This document shows positions 7,828 to 55,114 of a stretch of 64,000 nt of DNA, piece by piece; positions within the stretch are counted from its first letter, which is position 1, and every line of letters begins with the position of its first letter. Below the pieces are notes generated by a model. That model saw nothing but the letters and a program-made list of their open reading frames with translations, had not been told where the DNA came from and searched no databases. The stretch comes from Escherichia phage EP75, in sequence record MG748547, one strand, 5' to 3'. Made by a program: the position numbers and the translations under genes.

Positions 7828-9063
7828 TCATCGTTTCAACAAAGACATGAGGTTTACACTGGTCGACTTCGGATTGTCCTCTATATTCCGGACGGGCATT
7901 TTCAGATTAGTGTAAACCTCAGATGGTTCCCAACGCGTACCCTGCTGCAGGTGCCATATATGTAGAGGAACACCCGTTTCAAAGAACACAGGCATCTTCC
8001 ACTTCTGGACGCCAGGAACGTGCCCTGCAGGAGCTTTTTCGCACAACAGGGTATCTGGTAGCCAGAGGGAACGGGCTTCCCATAATGCCTTACAGGAGTA
8101 CTCAGGCCAGATGCGTTCCATGTAGTCGATCTCATCCCAAGTACGCTCGGCATCCCACCCGATGTAACGGGTATTCTTCAGACGGAAGAATTTCTTAAGC
8201 CAACAAGCACCGGAGGTCTCAAAGTTCAGACGATTGATGAACGTGATGTGGCCGAACTCTTCAACGCATTCCTGAAACGCTTTCTCAAGGTCGTTTTCGA
8301 GTATATCACATTCTTCGTCTGTAATAGGACAACCGTTGATCTTTTTCTTCCCGTGCTTGGTCACCCAATCATCACGGTTGGATAAGAACGCCGCGCCGTT
8401 ACGATTGGATTCGCTACCATCACGGTCACGCAACATGAAACCAGGGACGTCTATATCCCATATGTTACCGAAGACCATGTTCAGGGCTTCCAGGAAGTTC
8501 CATGCGCTCAGGCGACCGAAGTATTTCCATGACATCGCCGTATTCCACAGTTCAGTGAACTGGTCTTCCTTGGTAGTGCATTCCAACATCCAACGAAAAG
8601 AATCCATTTGGGTTTTACCACCCAACCAATCGATATAGGACTGAACGCACGGAATCATCTTCGACTTACGATAACGACAATCTGTATCGAAGCGCATACG
8701 ATCAAAGTTCAGGTTATACCAATCAGAAAATCGCTGAAACTCTTTCGGAGATTGTGGGGGTACAGGAAATTCACTGTAAATTGTCCATGGTCCAATCCCA
8801 TTATAGCAACAACCCCACAAAAAGGCCATCCAAATCTTGCGCTCGATCTTCTCGAGCTGTGTGATGCCTTCTGTAACCTCTATGGCATAATCCATCAGAC
8901 GGACTTGCTGGTTATGCTCTTCAGTGTAGGATAGCGCCTCCACCCATGCCTTGAGCAGGTACATGCGATTTTCTGGCTTACGATAATCTACTGCCAGATC
9001 AATCGGGTATTTCCATTTTTCAGGGGCTTTATACCCCTGCGGCATTTTAGAAATGTGTATCAT
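7828..9063 (-). CDS. 411-aa enzyme of unknown fold; candidate DNA-base hypermodification enzyme (possibly thymine pyrophosphorylase-type aminotransferase)
   Basis: large Trp/Cys-rich ORF in the same tightly packed minus-strand operon as a P-loop kinase and HAD phosphatase; function is inference from context. Confidence 0.3.
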   Translation of the reverse strand: MIHISKMPQGYKAPEKWKYPIDLAVDYRKPENRMYLLKAWVEALSYTEEHNQQVRLMDYAIEVTEGITQLEKIERKIWMAFLWGCCYNGIGPWTIYSEFPVPPQSPKEFQRFSDWYNLNFDRMRFDTDCRYRKSKMIPCVQSYIDWLGGKTQMDSFRWMLECTTKEDQFTELWNTAMSWKYFGRLSAWNFLEALNMVFGNIWDIDVPGFMLRDRDGSESNRNGAAFLSNRDDWVTKHGKKKINGCPITDEECDILENDLEKAFQECVEEFGHITFINRLNFETSGACWLKKFFRLKNTRYIGWDAERTWDEIDYMERIWPEYSCKALWEARSLWLPDTLLCEKAPAGHVPGVQKWKMPVFFETGVPLHIWHLQQGTRWEPSEVYTNLKMPVRNIEDNPKSTSVNLMSLLKR

Positions 9064-18388: not shown

Positions 18389-19714
18389 TCAATCAGGGGT
18401 AAACTCGTTCACAGGAACTTGTTCCGGCATAGACAATTCGGGGCATGCTGCCTTCATTGACTCAATATATGGCTTGCTACCCACAATCCAGAACAGAGTA
18501 TTTTCGTTGAGCAGTTCTGGCTTATGCTGTTGGATCCAGGTCATGACCTTGCCTTCATAGCGTGGATGCAGCTCAATATCGCCCCACTGATAATCCATCA
18601 GGTCATTATAGCGAACCCAATTCGTTGTGTGTAAATCCCAATGGTGTACTGCAAAGCGTGGGAGCGTTATCTCCGGCTCTCCCTTCTCGCGGATACCCAT
18701 CAGGAGGCCAGCCAGCGAAACGCTCTTAGAGGCATGCTGAAGATCCTTCTTGCCGTACACATAATCTGGGTTGTCGTGATAGCAACGAGTGAAATCCGTT
18801 ATGTGTGGAAGATTAGCTTGTTTTCCAATAACACGCAAACGGCTTTCAATAAAGTCCAGACGGTTGGGACCAATCCCGATCAGATATACATTTTTCAGAT
18901 TCGGTTTCGGGTGCATAGCCAGCCCTGTCAAAATGCTGGTACAAGAATTACATGAACCCGCAGGAATGATCAGATCTGTGATATGGTCCGGAATGTTAGC
19001 AACCTGCTCGCCGCCCAGCATATGGAATCCTGCAATTCGCTCCGGAGAATGCAACGTATGATCCAAAGTGATCCCATATTCTAGATAATATGCTTTTGGA
19101 TTCTGCTGCTCAATCAATTTCTTGCAGCGCGGTTGGATAGTGCTGTTGTAACCCGAACCGACGAAGTTGAATTCGCTGCCGAACCATGCACTCATCTTAA
19201 CCATATCGTGGTTCATACAGGTGGTTGGTTTGGTCGCGCCCAGGACTGTAGTTGTCTTGCCGCCAAAATGCCGAGAGACTGCCGTCGCCATAGGGGACTG
19301 CGGACTACCAACAACAGTGCCATGGATAAGGTCGGGGGAGCCTCCGACCTTGAGGTGCTCAACCATCAGCCAGATGGCCTGACGCAATTTACTACCATTG
19401 ATCCCCTGCTTACCATTCATATAACAAGACAGCGGCGCGAAGTAATCTTCACGTTTGAACCAGACCTGCTGATTGGTTTCGGGGTTGGCAACGAGTTCGC
19501 ACGGGGTGTGTTTGTAGAGGTAGTCTTCCCAGTGAATGATATTTCTATCAAGTGAGAGAGCATTGAAGATTGTTTTACGCCCTGCCATAAGGGCGTCAGG
19601 GGTATATGGGGCAAAGATGATACCTTCTTTCGCCATCTCTTCTTTTAGAGTAGTGGCCAAGAGTTCTTCCACTTCTTCACCGTGTAAAATTTCTTGTTCG
19701 GATGTAGGCTTCAT
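18389..19714 (-). CDS. PLP-dependent enzyme, fold-type II-like (ACC-deaminase/D-cysteine desulfhydrase-like motif)
   Basis: VWFKREDYF...GSKLRQAIWL resembles IKRDD...GGNKxRKL of ACC deaminase family (recalled). Confidence 0.4.
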   Translation of the reverse strand: MKPTSEQEILHGEEVEELLATTLKEEMAKEGIIFAPYTPDALMAGRKTIFNALSLDRNIIHWEDYLYKHTPCELVANPETNQQVWFKREDYFAPLSCYMNGKQGINGSKLRQAIWLMVEHLKVGGSPDLIHGTVVGSPQSPMATAVSRHFGGKTTTVLGATKPTTCMNHDMVKMSAWFGSEFNFVGSGYNSTIQPRCKKLIEQQNPKAYYLEYGITLDHTLHSPERIAGFHMLGGEQVANIPDHITDLIIPAGSCNSCTSILTGLAMHPKPNLKNVYLIGIGPNRLDFIESRLRVIGKQANLPHITDFTRCYHDNPDYVYGKKDLQHASKSVSLAGLLMGIREKGEPEITLPRFAVHHWDLHTTNWVRYNDLMDYQWGDIELHPRYEGKVMTWIQQHKPELLNENTLFWIVGSKPYIESMKAACPELSMPEQVPVNEFTPD

Positions 19715-21774: not shown

Positions 21775-21858
21775 TGGTGTGAGTGGATGGATTTGAACCA
21801 CCGCGCTGTTACGGGGAGATTTACAGTCTCCTGCATTCGACCGCTCTGCCACACTCAC
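21775..21858 (-). tRNA. tRNA-Tyr (anticodon GTA), class II with long variable arm, CCA encoded
   Basis: hand-folded cloverleaf: acceptor GTGAGTG/CACTCAC perfect, anticodon loop CTGTAAA, T-arm GGTGG-TTCAAAT-CCATC. Confidence 0.8.
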
Positions 21859-22253: not shown

Positions 22254-22329
22254 TGGCGACGATGACAGGACTTGAACCTGCGACATATGGATTAACAGTC
22301 CACCGTTCTACCGACTGAACTACATCGTC
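22254..22329 (-). tRNA. tRNA-Asn (anticodon GTT), CCA encoded
   Basis: hand-folded: acceptor GACGATG/CATCGTC perfect, D-arm GTTC-AGTCGGTA-GAAC, anticodon loop CTGTTAA, T-loop TTCAAGT. Confidence 0.85.
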
Positions 22330-22514: not shown

Positions 22515-22590
22515 TGGTGACCCTGGCTGGACTTGAACCAGCGACCAATCGATTATGAGTCGACTGCTCTAACCACTGAGCTACGGGGCC
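22515..22590 (-). tRNA. tRNA-Met/Ile2-type (anticodon CAT), CCA encoded
   Basis: hand-folded: D-arm GCTC-AGTGGTTA-GAGC, anticodon loop CTCATAA, T-arm GCTGG-TTCAAGT-CCAGC; one C-A mismatch in acceptor stem. Confidence 0.7.
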
Positions 22591-46800: not shown

Positions 46801-46857
46801 TTGACTAAATACCTTCAAAATTGAGGGTAAAGTCATGGCTACTTCAAAATATTTCTG
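46801..46857 (+). repeat. 57-bp degenerate direct repeat of the gp14 promoter/5' end (copy 1, truncated after 7 codons)
   Basis: ACTAAATAccTTcAAAaTTGAGGgtAAAgTcATGGCTACTTC vs 47577..47633. Confidence 0.6.
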
Positions 46858-47549
46858 ATAAAATCTACGACTGATCCATCGTATACAAACCATTCGGTAG
46901 CACCGTCAAAATCCTTATACCCCGCGCTCTTACACATTCTATGGGCAATTCTTTCCAACCTGGAAACAAATAATCCGTCGGTTGAATTAAATATTTCTAG
47001 AACGTTGAAGTAAAACGGGGTGGTGCTTCTCAAACAATTTATACGTTTCTTAGGCGAGTTGGTTATTCCCACTTTCATACAACCTTCGTCGTTGACTAGA
47101 ATATATAAGAAACCTTCCTTAGAATAATTGTAACCCGATTCTGCGCAATACGGACACCAACTTCGGCTGTTGACTAAATTACCGTACCTGGATTCCCACC
47201 TGTGCGTTTCAGAACATTCCATGACACAAATTGTCACGTTGTCTTTGTACTTCCCGCCAATGAAATTTATGAATTTACCACCGTTGCTTACGGCGTACTC
47301 CGATATCCTGATTTTAGCTTCTTCATTTGAGATCTTCTTGTTTCCACGACACGAAGGACACCAACTTCCTTTATTTATCAAATTCGCATAAGTTGCTGAG
47401 TTCCATTCATGACCAAATTCGCAAGACAAAATGCACTTAGTTTGGTTGGTGACAAATTTACCACCGACAAATCCGTGAAATATTCCACCTCTAGAAGAAG
47501 CATATGATTTGATTCTTTTAGAAGCAATTCCTTCTGTCAGGACGATCAT
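46839..47549 (-). mobile_element. free-standing endonuclease-like gene: two zinc-ribbon repeats (CxxC...WCPxC) + C-terminal T5orf172/GIY-YIG-like domain
   Basis: 236-aa ORF opposite to flanking late genes; repeated GGKF...GHEW...NL(I/V)N.GSWCP(S/Y)C; C-terminal GFLYILVN...KVGIT...R; flanked by direct repeats. Confidence 0.5.
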
Positions 47550-48950: not shown

Positions 48951-49633
48951 TCATGAGCAATATGTCAGAAAGGTTACTCGCCACACTTGATGCGGTGACT
49001 GCCCGAGACGAAGTTGGGAAGGAGGCAATGGAGGCTGTCGCCCCTCGTCCAGGTATTGACTTCGATGAAAATACAGGTGAATGGTTTGGTGAACGTCCGG
49101 AAGGGTATCAGCCGATTCCTGAACCGCCTTCATTGGAGGATATTGCTTCCAAGGAATCCAAAGTACCTGAGTTTGCGGACACTGATGCTACAACGGATTA
49201 CAAACGGATACGCGACACAACATATGCCATGCAAGAAGCCACAATGTTCATGATGGGACAAGCCGCTAAATTGGCTGCATCCACAGAAGCTCCGCGAGCA
49301 TTTTCTGTTTTCCGTGAATTGGGTGAACTCATGCGCGGTCTGAATAAAGACCTGATGGAAAACCAGAAAACCATCAAGGCGGTGACAGGTGATAAAGAAC
49401 CACCTGTTGATGACACGACAGTGGATGTTACAACTTCACCAGACGGAACAACAACAGTATCGGTTGGGAAAAAGGCGCGATCTTCTCGCGATTTATTGAA
49501 GACGATTGAAGATGCCCGTCGTCGCGCTGAAGAAAGAGCACAAGCAAAGGCCGCACAACAACCAGAAGATGAAATCATTGATGGTGAAACAGTTGATGTG
49601 AAGGAAGAAGACGATGGCGTATCAGAAGCGTGA
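48947..49633 (+). CDS. terminase small subunit (gp16-like)
   Basis: immediately upstream of and overlapping terminase large subunit. Confidence 0.5.
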   Translation: MIMSNMSERLLATLDAVTARDEVGKEAMEAVAPRPGIDFDENTGEWFGERPEGYQPIPEPPSLEDIASKESKVPEFADTDATTDYKRIRDTTYAMQEATMFMMGQAAKLAASTEAPRAFSVFRELGELMRGLNKDLMENQKTIKAVTGDKEPPVDDTTVDVTTSPDGTTTVSVGKKARSSRDLLKTIEDARRRAEERAQAKAAQQPEDEIIDGETVDVKEEDDGVSEA

Positions 49634-51824
49634 TATAGAATATGCCCCAATTAAAACGGGGTTCAAAATAGACGATGTGAAATTGCGTATGGACCAAACG
49701 TTCATGCGCAAACCTTCTGTGCGTGCTCCCCGAGTCGAGTTAATGCTGACAGATGAACAAGAAGACGAATTCGTTGAATGTTCTATGGATGCACACTACT
49801 TCGCCGCCAACTATTACAAGATAACCACGATCGATAAAGGCTTTATCCTTTTCGATATGCATGATTATCAGAAGCAGTTGTTCCACGACTTTCAGGACTA
49901 TCGATTCAATGCGGTCGTCCAGGCTCGTCAGTCCGGAAAATGTGTAAAAGGCGACACGCTTGTCACAGTTTACGATACTCTCAGCCAAGAGGAGTTGCTC
50001 CTGACTATAGGGGAGCTTCACAGTCGCTTCGAGGACGTCAACCACGCTGTGCCGCTGAATACCATTGGCAACCATGACAAGTTCGTGGACAGCCGCTTCG
50101 GCAAACGTTACTTTGTACAATCCGATAGTGGCTGGGTTCCGGTTATCGCAGCGCATAAGACGAAGAAATATGCGGAATTCGTTATTGTCACCGTTACCGG
50201 AAGGCGAATTAACGTGGCCGATGAACATATGTTCTTCACTCCGGACATGAAGGAGATATTTGCCAAAGACCTGAATGCTGGGTCATACATCATGACGACA
50301 GAAGGTCCAGAAGAAATCCGTGAGATTTGGCAGACTGGTGAATATCACCATATGTACGATCTGCAGGTCAAATCTAGTGATCAACGTTATTACACGAATG
50401 GCTTTCTCAGTCATAACACGACCGTGGTGGCGGCGTTTCTTCTTTGGTACGCGATGTTCCATTCTGATAAGGAAATCGCAGTACTGGCAAACAAAGAGAA
50501 ACAAGCGATAGAAATTCTTGACCGTATCAGAAAGGCATACCAAGACCTTCCATTCTTCCTTCAGCAGGGTTGTGAGAAGTTTGGTTCTACCCTGATAGAG
50601 TTTGAGAATGGTTCTAAGATATACGCTTATGCCACGTCTTCGGACTCCATCCGTGGTCGTTCTGTATCGCTCTTGTACGTTGACGAAGTCGCGTTTATCG
50701 AAAACGACTTTGAATTTTGGGAATCAACTTTCCCAGCCATTGCATCTGCCGATACATCACGCTGTATTTTGACAAGTACTCCGAAAGGCCAGCGAGGGTT
50801 GTTCTATGATATTGTCACCAAAGCAGATCCGCGCCATCCACAATACAACGACTTCCACCTAACTGAAGTCCCATGGTATAAGGTTCCGGCATATACCAAA
50901 GATCCAGATTGGGAAACCAAACAACGTGCCCGTCTGGGGGATGCTCGTTTCGATCAAGAATTTGGCATTAAGTTCCGTGGTTCCGTGGGTTCATTGATTC
51001 CGGCCAAATGCTTAGATAAAATGACGTCCAAGTTGTATCGGGAACCTAATGAATTCACCAAGATTTATAAGGAATACGACCCACAACGTCTCTACTTTGG
51101 GATTGCGGACACTGGGAAGGGGGTGGAAGGAGATTATTCCGTCTTAACAATTCTGGATATAACTGAATATCCGCATGTTATAGCAGCCAAGTACAGGAAT
51201 AACACGATACCTCCTATGATGTATGCATACACGATAGCTGATATGTGCACCGAATACGGGGAATGCCCTGTCCTTGTTGAAACAAACAACGACGTCGGCG
51301 GTCAGGTTATTACAATTCTTTATCAAGAGATAGAATATCCAGAAATCATATTCACATCAACAGATAACAAAGGGACGGGGAAACGGATTGGTGGACGTAA
51401 ACCGGAACCTGGTATCAATACCAACAGAAAAGTCCGATCTATCGGTTGTGCTAACCTGAAAGCGCTCATTGAGAAAGAAATGTTGGTGATAGAAGACCAG
51501 GACACGATAGATGAACTCAGTACATTTGTGTTCAAAGGCGCTCGGTATGAAGCCGATGACGGTTGTCACGATGACTGTGTCATGCCGTTGGTCTTATATT
51601 CATGGGCGGTAAAACAAGAATGGTTCAGTGATTTGACATCTACAAGTATTTCTCAGGACATGAGAAACCGAATGTCTTCAACTGAATCTCAGCAGGTATT
51701 CCCATTTGGTGGTTTAGTCGTTGGAGACACCCCATCCGAAACTGAGCATTTGCCTGGTTTCGGGGGTATTCAAGTTTTCAACGAAATGTCAGGGATGACC
51801 ATGGATGAGTGGTTTAAGAATTGA
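49614..51824 (+). CDS. terminase large subunit (gp17-like), intein-containing precursor
   Basis: Walker A QARQSGK|TTVVAAFLLWY split by insertion; 736 aa precursor, about 574 aa after splicing. Confidence 0.9.
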   Translation: MAYQKRDIEYAPIKTGFKIDDVKLRMDQTFMRKPSVRAPRVELMLTDEQEDEFVECSMDAHYFAANYYKITTIDKGFILFDMHDYQKQLFHDFQDYRFNAVVQARQSGKCVKGDTLVTVYDTLSQEELLLTIGELHSRFEDVNHAVPLNTIGNHDKFVDSRFGKRYFVQSDSGWVPVIAAHKTKKYAEFVIVTVTGRRINVADEHMFFTPDMKEIFAKDLNAGSYIMTTEGPEEIREIWQTGEYHHMYDLQVKSSDQRYYTNGFLSHNTTVVAAFLLWYAMFHSDKEIAVLANKEKQAIEILDRIRKAYQDLPFFLQQGCEKFGSTLIEFENGSKIYAYATSSDSIRGRSVSLLYVDEVAFIENDFEFWESTFPAIASADTSRCILTSTPKGQRGLFYDIVTKADPRHPQYNDFHLTEVPWYKVPAYTKDPDWETKQRARLGDARFDQEFGIKFRGSVGSLIPAKCLDKMTSKLYREPNEFTKIYKEYDPQRLYFGIADTGKGVEGDYSVLTILDITEYPHVIAAKYRNNTIPPMMYAYTIADMCTEYGECPVLVETNNDVGGQVITILYQEIEYPEIIFTSTDNKGTGKRIGGRKPEPGINTNRKVRSIGCANLKALIEKEMLVIEDQDTIDELSTFVFKGARYEADDGCHDDCVMPLVLYSWAVKQEWFSDLTSTSISQDMRNRMSSTESQQVFPFGGLVVGDTPSETEHLPGFGGIQVFNEMSGMTMDEWFKN
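49941..50426 (+). other. mini-intein (162 aa, Hint domain only) inserted in terminase Walker A P-loop
   Basis: begins Cys (CVKGDTLVTV), block B GRRINVADEHMFFT, block F/G MYDLQV...NGFLSHN, +1 Thr restores GKT. Confidence 0.75.
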
Positions 51825-53780: not shown

Positions 53781-53805
53781 CCCCGCTTCGGCGGGGTTTT
53801 TATTT
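53781..53805 (+). terminator. rho-independent terminator CCCCGC-TTCG-GCGGGG-TTTTTATTT
   Basis: identical to 40241..40265. Confidence 0.65.
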
Positions 53806-54588
53806 CCTGCTGATATGCCATCCTGTAGTGTTTGTTCTCTTCAGTGAAGATTTCCTGTAAGGTTTAGGGATGGGATTCTGCATCCTTCCAGCTAATGCCA
53901 TGTTGAAAGATTCTATACACAAACATTGTTCTTGACAAAATTTGTTTAGATTCTTGATTTCATATTTTTCACCATCTGGTGAAAGAAGTGTAAACCATCT
54001 TCCGAGAGATCGTTTTATTTTCTCTTGGTATTCAGGATTCATGCGCACTTTGTTCATAGCGGCACGGAGATTTTCTTTACATTTTGGATTTTCGTACGCT
54101 TTCTTCAAACATTGTGAATGTATATGGCGTTTGTTTTTGTCCCAAGCCTTGGTTTGAGATTCAGACATTTTCGTTTTTGTTTCTTCGGAAAGTTTAATGC
54201 CTGTCATTGAATGAACAAACAAAACATTCCAACCAGCATCTTTAACTGGTTTCATCCCGATGAATTCTCTGGTTTCTATATCATATGCTGCTGCCATACC
54301 CGATATGTCTATTTGACCACCATGACTGATGTTCAGTCCACCTTCAGAGATATGAGTCTTATGTAATTTTATGAGTTCAATTTCTTTAGAATTTAGTTCA
54401 TCGACTTGGCATTCCAGCAATATCTCTTGGTCAGTAATTCCATATTTTCGGATATAATTGTAGAGGATAGTTTTATTTCCTCTTCTGGCCTCACCCAGAT
54501 GCTCCTTTATTCGGTGTTCAACCCCATTTCTTGTTTGTCCAATATACTTCTTTCCACCAACGATTAACATGTAAATGTGACCGATCAT
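53800..54588 (-). mobile_element. GIY-YIG homing endonuclease (Seg/I-TevI-like) with NUMOD-like C-terminal repeats
   Basis: MIGHIYMLIVGGKKYIGQTRNGVEHRIKEH; start trimmed to MIGH with GGAGGTG RBS; opposite strand to flanking sheath/tube genes. Confidence 0.7.
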
Positions 54589-54655
54589 ACAACACCTCCA
54601 AGAACATGATACCCCGAAATTGTTCAACACTAAATAAAATAGAGGTGAATTTGAA

Positions 54656-55114
54656 ATGATATACGCATACAAAATTGAAACGATAACTAATGGAAAGGTC
54701 TACATCGGTGTGACCAATCACCCACAACGAAGATATGATCAGCATTTTGCGAATGCTTTTCATCATGGAGTCCAAAGTGAATTGTATGATGCCATGCGTA
54801 AGTATGGAACATCTGGATTTACTTTCGTTGTAATTGCTCAGACCGATGAAGTCCATAAATGGGAATTAGAGAAGCAACTCATCGCTCAATATAATTCTTA
54901 TGAGATGGGTTACAACATGAATAAAGGCGGTAATGATGGAAGTCATATGCTGGGTAAAACTGCAGCAAAATTGACATCTACAGGTGAACACATTGGTCTT
55001 GTTTCTCTCATAGATCCCCGTTGGGAATTGTGTGAAATCGAACCCGTTTTAAGCAATGTTGACCACGGATTTGATTTTTCTTCCATGAAGATTAAAAGAT
55101 TGACGACTAATTAG
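54656..55114 (+). mobile_element. GIY-YIG homing endonuclease-like protein
   Basis: MIYAYKIETITNGKVYIGVTNHPQRRYDQH. Confidence 0.6.

What the first reader, a model, noticed from the sequence alone, without database searches (positions are those of the whole stretch)
18389..19714. PLP-dependent fold-type-II enzyme, possible partner of the hypermodification pathway
The 441-aa ORF has FKREDYF...GSKLRQAIWL, resembling the lysine-bearing N-terminal motif of ACC-deaminase/D-cysteine-desulfhydrase-type PLP enzymes. A PLP enzyme is not expected in a core phage replication module. It could decarboxylate or rearrange an amino-acid moiety attached to a DNA base.
Basis: inference. Interest (0 to 1): 0.55.

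Follow-up and report, generated by a model that had tools for sequence, protein, structure and literature searches.

The report
Known phage DNA-base PLP decarboxylase

Summary
The 441-aa ORF at 18389-19714 (minus strand) is real. It is 98% identical over residues 47-441 to Salmonella phage ViI gp226 (YP_004327553). Purified gp226 was shown to be a PLP-dependent decarboxylase that converts O-serinyl-thymidine in DNA to 5-(2-aminoethoxy)methyl-dU (Lee et al., NAR 2022, PMC8989533).

One feature appears unreported. A disordered, hypervariable insertion loop (aa 321-350) carries KSVSLAGLL. This copies the C-terminal tail shared by the phage DNA polymerase, the kinase, the transferase and gp160. 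The tails co-vary between phage lineages and elsewhere resemble T4 gp45-binding or beta-clamp-binding peptides. T4 ligase binds its clamp through just such an internal loop. I infer that the pathway enzymes dock on the sliding clamp (about 50% for this enzyme). No binding data exist.

The parts
18389..19714 (-). ORF of 441 aa. Orthologue of ViI gp226, the PLP-dependent (fold-type II) decarboxylase that converts O-serinyl-thymidine in DNA to 5-NeOmdU.
   Evidence: PMC8989533.
19722..19726 (-). AGGAG ribosome-binding site, 7 nt upstream of the ATG at 19714.
   Evidence: read directly from the sequence.
19577..19714 (-). N-terminal extension, aa 1-46. It is lineage-variable, lies outside the PHROG profile, has low to moderate pLDDT, and differs from the 29-aa N-terminus of Vi01 gp226.
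19445..19459 (-). FKRED motif, aa 86-90. F86, K87, R88 and D90 are invariant. It aligns to AKRED of ACC deaminases.
19367..19396 (-). GSKLRQAIWL, aa 107-116. K109 (codon 19388-19390) is the predicted Schiff-base lysine and equals K92 of gp226.
   Evidence: PMC8989533.
19298..19306 (-). S137-P138-Q139, all invariant. It aligns to S78-N79-Q80 of ACC deaminase, the loop that binds the substrate carboxylate.
   Evidence: PMC3344862.
18944..18961 (-). AGSCNS, aa 252-257. Predicted PLP phosphate-binding loop; G253 and N256 are invariant.
   Evidence: PMC3344862 for the equivalent Gly-rich loop.
18548..18559 (-). Y386-E387-G388-K389; Y, E and K are invariant. It aligns to Y294-E295-G-K of Pseudomonas ACC deaminase. 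The Tyr stacks on PLP, and the Glu is the predicted hydrogen-bond partner of the pyridine N1.
   Evidence: PMC3344862.
18665..18754 (-). Insertion loop, aa 321-350. It is absent from ACC deaminase-type cores, has low pLDDT (58-67), and is hypervariable in sequence and length.
18695..18727 (-). KSVSLAGLLMG, aa 330-340. An internal copy of the tail motif shared with the polymerase, kinase and AADT; a candidate sliding-clamp docking peptide.
7828..9063 (-). Amino acid:DNA transferase (PF18724), 91% identical to ViI gp247, the serine:DNA transferase. It makes the O-SerT substrate. Its C-terminal tail TSVNLMSLLKR lies at 7831-7863.
9820..10725 (-). 5-hmdU DNA kinase 2 (PF18747), 86% identical to ViI gp243. 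Its C-terminal tail SSVSLLGLLSK lies at 9826-9858.
12220..15318 (-). Family B (T4 gp43-like) DNA polymerase. Its C-terminal tail RRVNLLSMMGK lies at 12229-12261.

Best explanation
The ORF encodes the Kuttervirus orthologue of ViI gp226. This is a pyridoxal-phosphate enzyme of fold type II (ACC-deaminase-like) that performs the last step of thymidine hypermodification on polymeric DNA.

Pathway, as shown for the ViI proteins. 5-hmdU is incorporated at replication. The 5-hmdU DNA kinase (9820-10725) phosphorylates the hydroxymethyl group. The amino acid:DNA transferase (7828-9063) displaces the phosphate with the side-chain oxygen of free serine, giving O-serinyl-thymidine. This enzyme then removes the serine carboxylate, leaving 5-(2-aminoethoxy)methyl-dU.

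Chemistry, inferred. K109 holds PLP as an internal aldimine. The free alpha-amine of the DNA-bound serine transiminates. CO2 leaves through a quinonoid intermediate, stabilised by the Glu387 carboxylate at the pyridine N1. Protonation and transimination then release the product.

Added inference. The flexible insertion loop (aa 321-350) presents a copy of the DNA polymerase's C-terminal tail, and may tether the enzyme to the phage gp45-like sliding clamp behind the fork.
For: Identity and function:
- 98% identity over 395 aa to Vi01_182 / YP_004327553.
- gp226 was purified, was yellow with 410-425 nm absorbance, and converted O-SerT DNA to the 301 u nucleoside. It lost one labelled carbon in isotope experiments, and leaving it out accumulated the +44 u species (PMC8989533; PMC5889632).

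Fold:
- AF2 model with pLDDT 88.8.
- The profile hits the same PDB families.

Catalytic residues:
- K109, S137, Q139, G253, N256, Y386, E387 and K389 are invariant in 52 homologues down to about 41% identity.
- The Glu-N1 role in ACC deaminase comes from PMC3344862.

Context:
- The AADT and kinase orthologues are in the window.
- The gene is present in 346 phage records, essentially all Ackermannviridae and Vibrio relatives.

Loop motif:
- The strict motif SV[SN]L[ALM][GS]LL occurs only three times in six frames of the window, in exactly these three enzymes.
- The polymerase and gp160 carry it at their C-termini.
- The tails co-vary in Vibrio phage D503: KLW* on the polymerase, kinase, AADT and gp160 orthologue, and KTRRLF in the PLP loop.
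- The window's best 8-mer match lies in the loop, and 5 of 3000 shuffles reach its score.
- The motif is a conserved island in a variable loop.
- A PSSM trained on tails ranks the loop 10th of 64,249 positions.
- The identical residues use different codons.
- Precedent: T4 ligase binds gp45 through an internal loop (PMC6212786).
Against: - No experiment was done on this particular phage; function is transferred from a 98%-identical orthologue.
- Pfam PALP is 5 bits below its gathering score, and NCBIfam has no hit.
- The YEGK alignment to ACC deaminase is a low-scoring HMMER segment. I could not measure distances in the model.
- For the clamp idea there is no binding evidence.
- The loop motif is degenerate in phiMAM1, Bue1 and Dickeya-type phages, where 7-8-mer matching does not pick the loop. 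A naive 6-mer test was underpowered.
- Many distant homologues have short loops and partners without tails.
- The clamp gene lies outside the window, so no complex could be modelled.
Confidence: 0.9

Rival explanations
1. It is a threonine ammonia-lyase / threonine (or serine) dehydratase acting on free amino acids, as many public records name it.
Confidence: 0.02
2. It is an ACC deaminase / D-cysteine desulfhydrase-type auxiliary metabolic enzyme working on small molecules, unrelated to DNA.
For: These are the closest solved structures. The GxK, SxQ and YEGK motifs are shared. JGI names several homologues this way.
Against: Sequence identity is only 12-18%. The Asn79 equivalent is an invariant Pro138. 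The protein has an extra N-terminal region and a 30-aa insertion loop. NCBIfam gives no hit. The orthologue has direct biochemistry on DNA.
Confidence: 0.03
3. The enzyme is the gp226-type decarboxylase, but the loop motif is not a clamp-docking peptide. It may be chance similarity, or serve another purpose such as contacting DNA, contacting another pathway enzyme, membrane association, or binding some other hub shared with the polymerase tail.
For: The tails are basic and hydrophobic, and such peptides can bind membranes or DNA (own knowledge). The loop motif is weak in several lineages. Short-motif matches are common by chance. A baseplate protein and a tail protein also score fairly well with the PSSM.
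Against: The motif equals the C-terminal tail of a T4-type family B polymerase, the element that binds gp45 in T4 (PMC6212786). In T4-like contigs that encode gp45, the partner tails are acidic and of the SLEDFF type, like T4 SLDFLF. In other contigs they are of the QxxLF type, like beta-clamp motifs, and one of these contigs (L010) encodes a DnaN homologue. So charge and sequence change with lineage in a way that tracks clamp type. The motif is a conserved island in a hypervariable loop.
Confidence: 0.45

Closest known systems
Salmonella phage ViI gp226 (YP_004327553, Vi01_182), a PLP-dependent decarboxylase of O-serinyl-thymidine in DNA (Lee et al. 2018 PNAS; Lee et al. 2022 NAR)
   Same: 98% identical over aa 47-441. 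It shares the catalytic lysine (K92 = K109), the insertion loop and its motif, and the neighbouring genes.
   Different: The first 46 residues differ from the 29-residue N-terminus of gp226. There are eight substitutions elsewhere. No experiment has been done on this allele.
Pseudomonas phage M6 gp52, a PLP-dependent decarboxylase of C-alpha-glycinyl-thymidine that gives 5-NedU
   Same: The same enzyme class and reaction type on DNA-bound amino acids. The authors describe it as homologous to gp226 (PMC8989533).
   Different: It uses a different substrate, C-linked glycine, which must first be unmasked by a radical SAM isomerase. I did not compare the sequences here.
ACC deaminase / D-cysteine desulfhydrase subfamily of fold-type II PLP enzymes (PDB 1j0a, 4d97, 1rqx, 1f2d)
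T4 DNA ligase gp45-binding loop (residues 222-247, EPEGLDFLFD) (Shi et al. 2018 NAR, PMC6212786)
   Same: A flexible loop is inserted into a conserved catalytic domain. It carries a copy of the phage polymerase's C-terminal clamp-binding tail. The window enzyme has the same architecture.
   Different: The motif sequence differs: basic and VNLLSMM-like here, acidic and LDFLF-like in T4. Binding is proven for T4 ligase and only inferred here. T4's own DNA-modifying glucosyltransferases lack such a tail.

Membership tests
gp226-type DNA-base amino-acid decarboxylase (phrog_3650) | Full-length sequence orthology to ViI gp226. | tested here: met
   98% identity over 395 aa. phrog_3650 E = 1e-239 over profile positions 2-392 of 392. 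Syntenic position.
gp226-type DNA-base amino-acid decarboxylase (phrog_3650) | Fold-type II PLP fold with the Schiff-base lysine equivalent to gp226 K92. | tested here: met
gp226-type DNA-base amino-acid decarboxylase (phrog_3650) | Co-occurrence with a 5-hmdU DNA kinase and an amino acid:DNA transferase. | tested here: met
   PF18747 at 9820-10725 and PF18724 at 7828-9063, 86% and 91% identical to gp243 and gp247. The same holds in distant loci.
gp226-type DNA-base amino-acid decarboxylase (phrog_3650) | PLP-dependent decarboxylation of O-serinyl-thymidine in DNA. | not testable with these tools
   Shown for ViI gp226 in PMC8989533. Transferred here by 98% identity.
gp226-type DNA-base amino-acid decarboxylase (phrog_3650) | A source of 5-hmdU in the same genome (dUMP hydroxymethylase). 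| not tested
   The thyA-like gene of Vi01 (Vi01_060c) lies outside the region covered by this window. No such gene was found among the window ORFs scanned.
ACC deaminase / D-cysteine desulfhydrase | Curated family models (Pfam PALP gathering score; NCBIfam equivalogs). | tested here: not met
   PALP scores 30 bits against a cut-off of 35. NCBIfam has no family at E <= 1.
ACC deaminase / D-cysteine desulfhydrase | Active-site set: Lys51, Ser78, Asn79, Tyr294 and Glu295 (ACC deaminase), or Thr288/Thr315 (D-Cys desulfhydrase). | tested here: inconclusive
   The Lys, Ser, Tyr and Glu equivalents are present and invariant, but Asn79 is replaced by an invariant Pro138. The Leu322/Thr315 equivalent was not mapped.
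ACC deaminase / D-cysteine desulfhydrase | Deamination or desulfhydration of free ACC or D-Cys. | not testable with these tools
   The only biochemistry on the orthologue shows decarboxylation on DNA.
Threonine ammonia-lyase / dehydratase (public annotation) | Match to curated dehydratase models, and closest structural similarity to dehydratases. | tested here: not met
Sliding-clamp client with an internal clamp-binding loop (T4 ligase type) | A short motif matching the cognate polymerase's C-terminal tail. | tested here: met
   SVSLAGLL matches kinase SVSLLGLL, AADT SVNLMSLL and polymerase VNLLSMM. It is the best 8-mer match in the protein, and 5 of 3000 shuffles reach it. PSSM rank 10 of 64,249. 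The direct match to the polymerase tail alone is weak.
Sliding-clamp client with an internal clamp-binding loop (T4 ligase type) | The motif lies in a flexible, exposed segment and is conserved while its flanks vary. | tested here: met
   pLDDT 58-67 for aa 321-350. A conserved '+...h..hh' island across 24 distinct Ackermannviridae loops.
Sliding-clamp client with an internal clamp-binding loop (T4 ligase type) | The motif co-varies with the partner and polymerase tails across lineages. | tested here: inconclusive
   Clear for Kuttervirus, Klebsiella phages and Vibrio D503, and visible in L013, L045 and L078. Not detected by 7-8-mer scoring in phiMAM1, Bue1 and Dickeya-type phages.
Sliding-clamp client with an internal clamp-binding loop (T4 ligase type) | Physical binding to the clamp. 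| not testable with these tools
   The clamp gene (Vi01_135c orthologue) is outside the window, and complex prediction was not possible.

The most novel reading that the evidence does not exclude
All enzymes of the ViI-type thymidine hypermodification pathway carry a copy of the phage DNA polymerase's C-terminal clamp-binding-type peptide. Kinase 2, the serine:DNA transferase and gp160 carry it at their C-termini, this PLP decarboxylase carries it in an internal disordered loop (aa 330-340), and kinase 1 possibly carries it at its N-terminus.

Post-replicative base hypermodification would then be carried out by enzymes riding the phage sliding clamp behind the fork, a 'tool-belt' analogous to DNMT1 on PCNA (own knowledge). 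The peptide changes with clamp type across phage lineages: VNLLSMM or KLW in Ackermannviridae, SLEDFF in T4-like phages with gp45, and QxxLF where a beta-clamp is used. I found no report of this in the searchable literature.
Probability: 0.5. Interest if true: 0.65.

Novelty: already known. Interest (0 to 1): 0.3.

Why it matters
As submitted, the finding re-discovers a published enzyme. Its practical value is corrective. Most database records still call this gene 'hypothetical' or 'threonine ammonia-lyase', call the kinase 'guanylate kinase', and call gp67 'terminase small subunit'.

The chemistry, which is already published, is unusual: a fold-type II PLP enzyme acting as a decarboxylase on a residue attached to duplex DNA.

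The new lead is the shared polymerase-tail motif. If it is real, it would explain how a multi-step, post-replicative modification pathway finds newly made DNA and works processively. It might also bear on why only about 40% of thymines are modified. It gives a simple sequence signature (pathway enzymes ending in the cognate polymerase tail) for finding new DNA-modification enzymes and clamp clients in phage genomes. And it is directly testable with peptides and the clamp.

Tried and rejected
- **Single-sequence PDB search.** It gave only a spurious Cdc25 hit at E = 0.44. The profile search was needed.
- **NCBIfam.** No hit, so no curated equivalog could be assigned.
- **Naive loop test.** I asked whether the best 6-mer match of the partner tails within the PLP protein falls in the loop, across 26 loci. 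The first run timed out. The vectorised run was underpowered: regex anchors failed for several sequences, and chance matches to the conserved KDYFYLEYGIT core outscored the loop in T4-like lineages. I therefore do not claim loop/tail co-variation outside Kuttervirus, Klebsiella and Vibrio-type phages.
- **7-8-mer test.** It did not pick the loop in phiMAM1, Bue1 or the Dickeya type.
- **DNA repeat.** I considered that the shared motif could be a repeated DNA element, and rejected this. Identical residues use different codons and nucleotide identity is 33-48%.
- **T4 glucosyltransferases.** T4 alpha- and beta-glucosyltransferases have no such tail.
- **gp67 N-terminal copy.** I looked for conservation in other lineages, but only one uninformative orthologue was in hand.
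- **Polymerase tails of the T4-like metagenomic lineages (L012, L013).** These could not be obtained because the polymerase lies beyond the 10-kb flanks.
- **Clamp-peptide complex prediction.** Not possible, because the clamp lies outside the window.

Full report
**1. The observation**

An ATG-to-stop ORF of 441 aa lies at 18389-19714 on the minus strand. An AGGAG sequence sits 7 nt upstream of its ATG.

Pfam PALP (PF00291) matches aa 68-293 at E = 4.4e-7, 30 bits, just below the 35-bit gathering score. PHROGs places the protein in phrog_3650, 'unknown function', at E = 1e-239.

**2. What the window is**

The gene has megablast matches in 269 phage records, all ViI-like myoviruses (Ackermannviridae, mostly Kuttervirus). 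The protein is 100% identical to that of Salmonella phage Se-H.

The two proteins are 98% identical over aa 47-441, and only the first 46 residues differ.

**3. What is known about it**

YP_004327553 is 'ViI gp226' of Lee et al.

- In 2018, five ViI lysates (gp67, gp160, gp226, gp243 and gp247) reconstituted 5-(2-aminoethoxy)methyl-dU (5-NeOmdU) on 5-hmdU DNA (PMC5889632).
- In the 2021/22 NAR paper, leaving out gp226 accumulated a nucleoside 44 u heavier.
- Purified gp226 was yellow with a 410-425 nm absorbance band. It converted O-serinyl-thymidine (O-SerT) DNA to the 301 u product, and isotope-labelled O-SerT lost exactly one carbon.
- K92 was proposed as the Schiff-base lysine from a Phyre2 match to 1j0a (PMC8989533).

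**4. Independent checks made here**

I aligned 52 homologues down to about 41% identity. K109 (equal to gp226 K92) is invariant, as are F86, K87, R88, D90, N106, G107, R111, S137, P138, Q139, G253, N256, Y386, E387 and K389.

A profile of this alignment hits ACC deaminases (1rqx, 1f2d; E about 1e-5) and D-cysteine desulfhydrase (4d8t; E = 2e-3). It aligns GinGsK onto GGNK and HPtYEgK onto DPVYEGK.

NCBIfam has no hit at all. The public names 'threonine ammonia-lyase / dehydratase / deaminase' are therefore unsupported.

**5. Context**

The window encodes these genes on the same strand within 12 kb:

| Coordinates | Gene | Evidence |
|---|---|---|
| 7828-9063 | Amino acid:DNA transferase (PF18724), 91% identical to gp247 | |
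| 9820-10725 | 5-hmdU DNA kinase 2 (PF18747), 86% identical to gp243 | |
| 12220-15318 | Family B DNA polymerase | |

gp67, gp160, the thyA-like hydroxymethylase and the sliding clamp lie outside the window. The remainder of the window is tRNAs plus tail and head genes.

**6. Mechanism**

Shown for the orthologue: PLP dependence, decarboxylation of O-SerT in DNA, and the position of this step after the kinase and transferase.

Inferred here: K109 carries the internal aldimine. S137 and Q139 correspond to the carboxylate-binding loop of ACC deaminase. AGSCNS (aa 252-257) is the phosphate loop. Y386 stacks on the cofactor.

E387 occupies the position of Glu295 of ACC deaminase, which hydrogen-bonds the pyridine N1. 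[quoted passage not shown] This fits a decarboxylase that needs a good electron sink.

The YEGK alignment is a weak HMMER segment, so this step is inference.

**7. An unexpected feature**

Relative to ACC deaminase-type cores, the enzyme has a variable N-terminus and an insertion at aa 321-350. The insertion has low confidence (pLDDT 58-67) and is poorly conserved. Inside it lies KSVSLAGLL.

The kinase ends in KSSVSLLGLLSKG and the transferase ends in KSTSVNLMSLLKR. The strict pattern SV[SN]L[ALM][GS]LL occurs exactly three times in all six frames of the 64-kb window, in these three proteins.

In the whole Vi01 genome the same tail ends three further proteins:

- the DNA polymerase (HKRRVNLLSMMGKKG)
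- gp160 (KRGSVNLLDRLKKPE)
- a 70-aa protein, Vi01_049c (DKVNLLSLMRK)

I then used only the polymerase tail as a query against 65,077 positions. Four C-terminal tails (Vi01_049c, AADT, kinase 2, gp160) are among the ten best.

A PSSM built only from C-terminal tails ranks the PLP loop 10th of 64,249 positions. It ranks the N-terminus of gp67 (MSYSLKGLLK) 11th.

Identical residues are encoded by different codons, so this is not a DNA repeat.

**8. Co-variation between lineages**

| Lineage | Tails and PLP loop |
|---|---|
| Vibrio phage D503 | The polymerase, kinase, transferase and gp160 orthologue all end in [KR][KR]LW. They are the only 4 of 371 ORFs in the locus with that ending. The PLP loop has KTRRLF. 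|
| Serratia, Erwinia, Klebsiella and Dickeya phages | Lineage-specific variants of the VNLLSMM type. |
| T4-like metagenomic contigs with the PLP-transferase-kinase cluster and a Tet/JBP dioxygenase next to gp45 and its loader | Partner tails are acidic: SLEDFFS, SLERFFE, NLESFFQ, TLERFFG, NMDSFFV, INNFFQ. Several PLP loops carry NVLDFSG, SILDFFQ or GLTSFFT. |
| Other contigs, one of which encodes a DnaN homologue | Tails are QASLF, QTTLF, TQSLF, VQSLF. |

**9. Interpretation of the motif**

In T4 the gp43 C-terminus EKASLDFLFG binds the gp45 clamp. T4 ligase binds gp45 through EPEGLDFLFD, which lies in a flexible loop inserted in its catalytic domain (PMC6212786). I verified the gp43 and gp55 tails in the T4 sequence.

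The acidic tails above resemble this T4 motif. The QxxLF tails resemble the bacterial beta-clamp motif QL[SD]LF (own knowledge). The Ackermannviridae tails equal their own polymerase tail.

The simplest reading is that the pathway enzymes are sliding-clamp clients, and that this PLP enzyme presents the peptide from an internal loop, as T4 ligase does.

**10. Limits of that reading**

- For the window protein, the best 8-mer match to the partner tails is in the loop, which is 11% of the protein, and 5 of 3000 shuffles reach its score. The Klebsiella-phage lineage behaves alike.
- The motif is a conserved '+...h..hh' island in 24 distinct, otherwise hypervariable Ackermannviridae loops.
- However, 7-8-mer scoring does not select the loop in phiMAM1, Bue1 or Dickeya-type phages.
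- A 6-mer test over many loci was underpowered.
- Many small contigs have short loops and partners without tails.
- Nothing shows binding.
- I found no paper linking these enzymes to a clamp. The library is incomplete, though.

I put the clamp-docking reading at about 0.5 for this enzyme. It is somewhat higher for the C-terminal tails of the kinase, the transferase and gp160.

**11. Verdict**

Observation confirmed. Interpretation supported. The gene is the already characterised gp226-type DNA-base decarboxylase, so novelty is 'already known' and interest in the finding as submitted is low. The polymerase-tail motif shared by the pathway enzymes is the one lead worth following.

Noticed in passing
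window 12229-12261, 9826-9858, 7831-7863 (all minus strand): The C-terminal tails of the family B DNA polymerase (RRVNLLSMMGKKG), 5-hmdU DNA kinase 2 (SSVSLLGLLSKG) and the amino acid:DNA transferase (TSVNLMSLLKR) share one motif. It co-varies across phage lineages and resembles clamp-binding peptides.
   Followed up: yes
L004 30355-30567 (Vi01_049c) and L004 38203-38865 (Vi01_061c = gp67), both outside the window: A 70-aa protein of unknown function ends in DKVNLLSLMRK, the second-best match to the polymerase tail in the whole Vi01 genome. gp67 (kinase 1) starts with MSYSLKGLLK, a possible N-terminal copy of the motif.
   Followed up: partly
L012 8631-17925 and L013 7873-16859 (metagenomic T4-like contigs): A Tet/JBP dioxygenase, the PLP enzyme, an AADT and a P-loop kinase form a cluster next to the gp45 clamp and its loader. 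This looks like a thymidine hypermodification route that starts from T oxidation. Its enzymes end in T4-like SLEDFF-type tails.
   Followed up: partly
L010 11082-12233 and 20311-21092; L050, L057, L069: Some AADT and kinase homologues end in QSLF, QTTLF, QASLF or QIEVF, like bacterial beta-clamp-binding motifs. L010 encodes a DnaN-type clamp (PF02767). I did not check whether the other contigs encode DnaN.
   Followed up: partly
window 17900-18349 (minus strand): The gene immediately downstream of the PLP enzyme matches ART-PolyVal (ADP-ribosyltransferase in polyvalent proteins, E = 1.6e-10) and DUF3990. In relatives it is annotated only as a 'structural protein'.
   Followed up: no
window 9820-10725; Vi01 records (L003, L004): Public annotation lags the literature. 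The 5-hmdU DNA kinases are labelled 'guanylate kinase' (gp243) and 'terminase small subunit' (gp67), the PLP decarboxylase is labelled 'threonine ammonia lyase', and the transferase is labelled 'hypothetical'.
   Followed up: yes
window 10725-11030 and 11040-11882 (minus strand): A thioredoxin-like ORF (named so in phage bering) and an NT5C-type 5'(3')-deoxyribonucleotidase (PF06941, E = 2e-7) sit between the polymerase and the kinase. They may help shape the dTTP and 5-hmdUTP pools.
   Followed up: no
window 49614-51824 (plus strand): The large terminase (736 aa) has a sub-threshold Intein_splicing match at aa 125-228 (E = 7e-7, 29.6 bits against a cut-off of 35.8). Vi01 TerL has the same length.
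   Followed up: no
window 46839-47549 (-), 53800-54672 (-), 54656-55114 (+): Homing-endonuclease-like ORFs sit among the structural genes. One has CapR plus T5orf172/MUG113 domains. A GIY-YIG pair lies between the tail sheath and tail tube genes; Vi01 has only the 152-aa GIY-YIG gene there.
   Followed up: no
window 21775-21858, 22254-22329, 22515-22590 (minus strand): tRNA-Tyr, tRNA-Asn and tRNA-Met genes lie in the ORF-poor stretch upstream of the PLP gene region.
   Followed up: no
P0089 (747 aa): A homologue about twice the normal length. It is possibly one of the kinase / PLP / transferase fusions mentioned in PMC8989533. I did not examine it.
   Followed up: no
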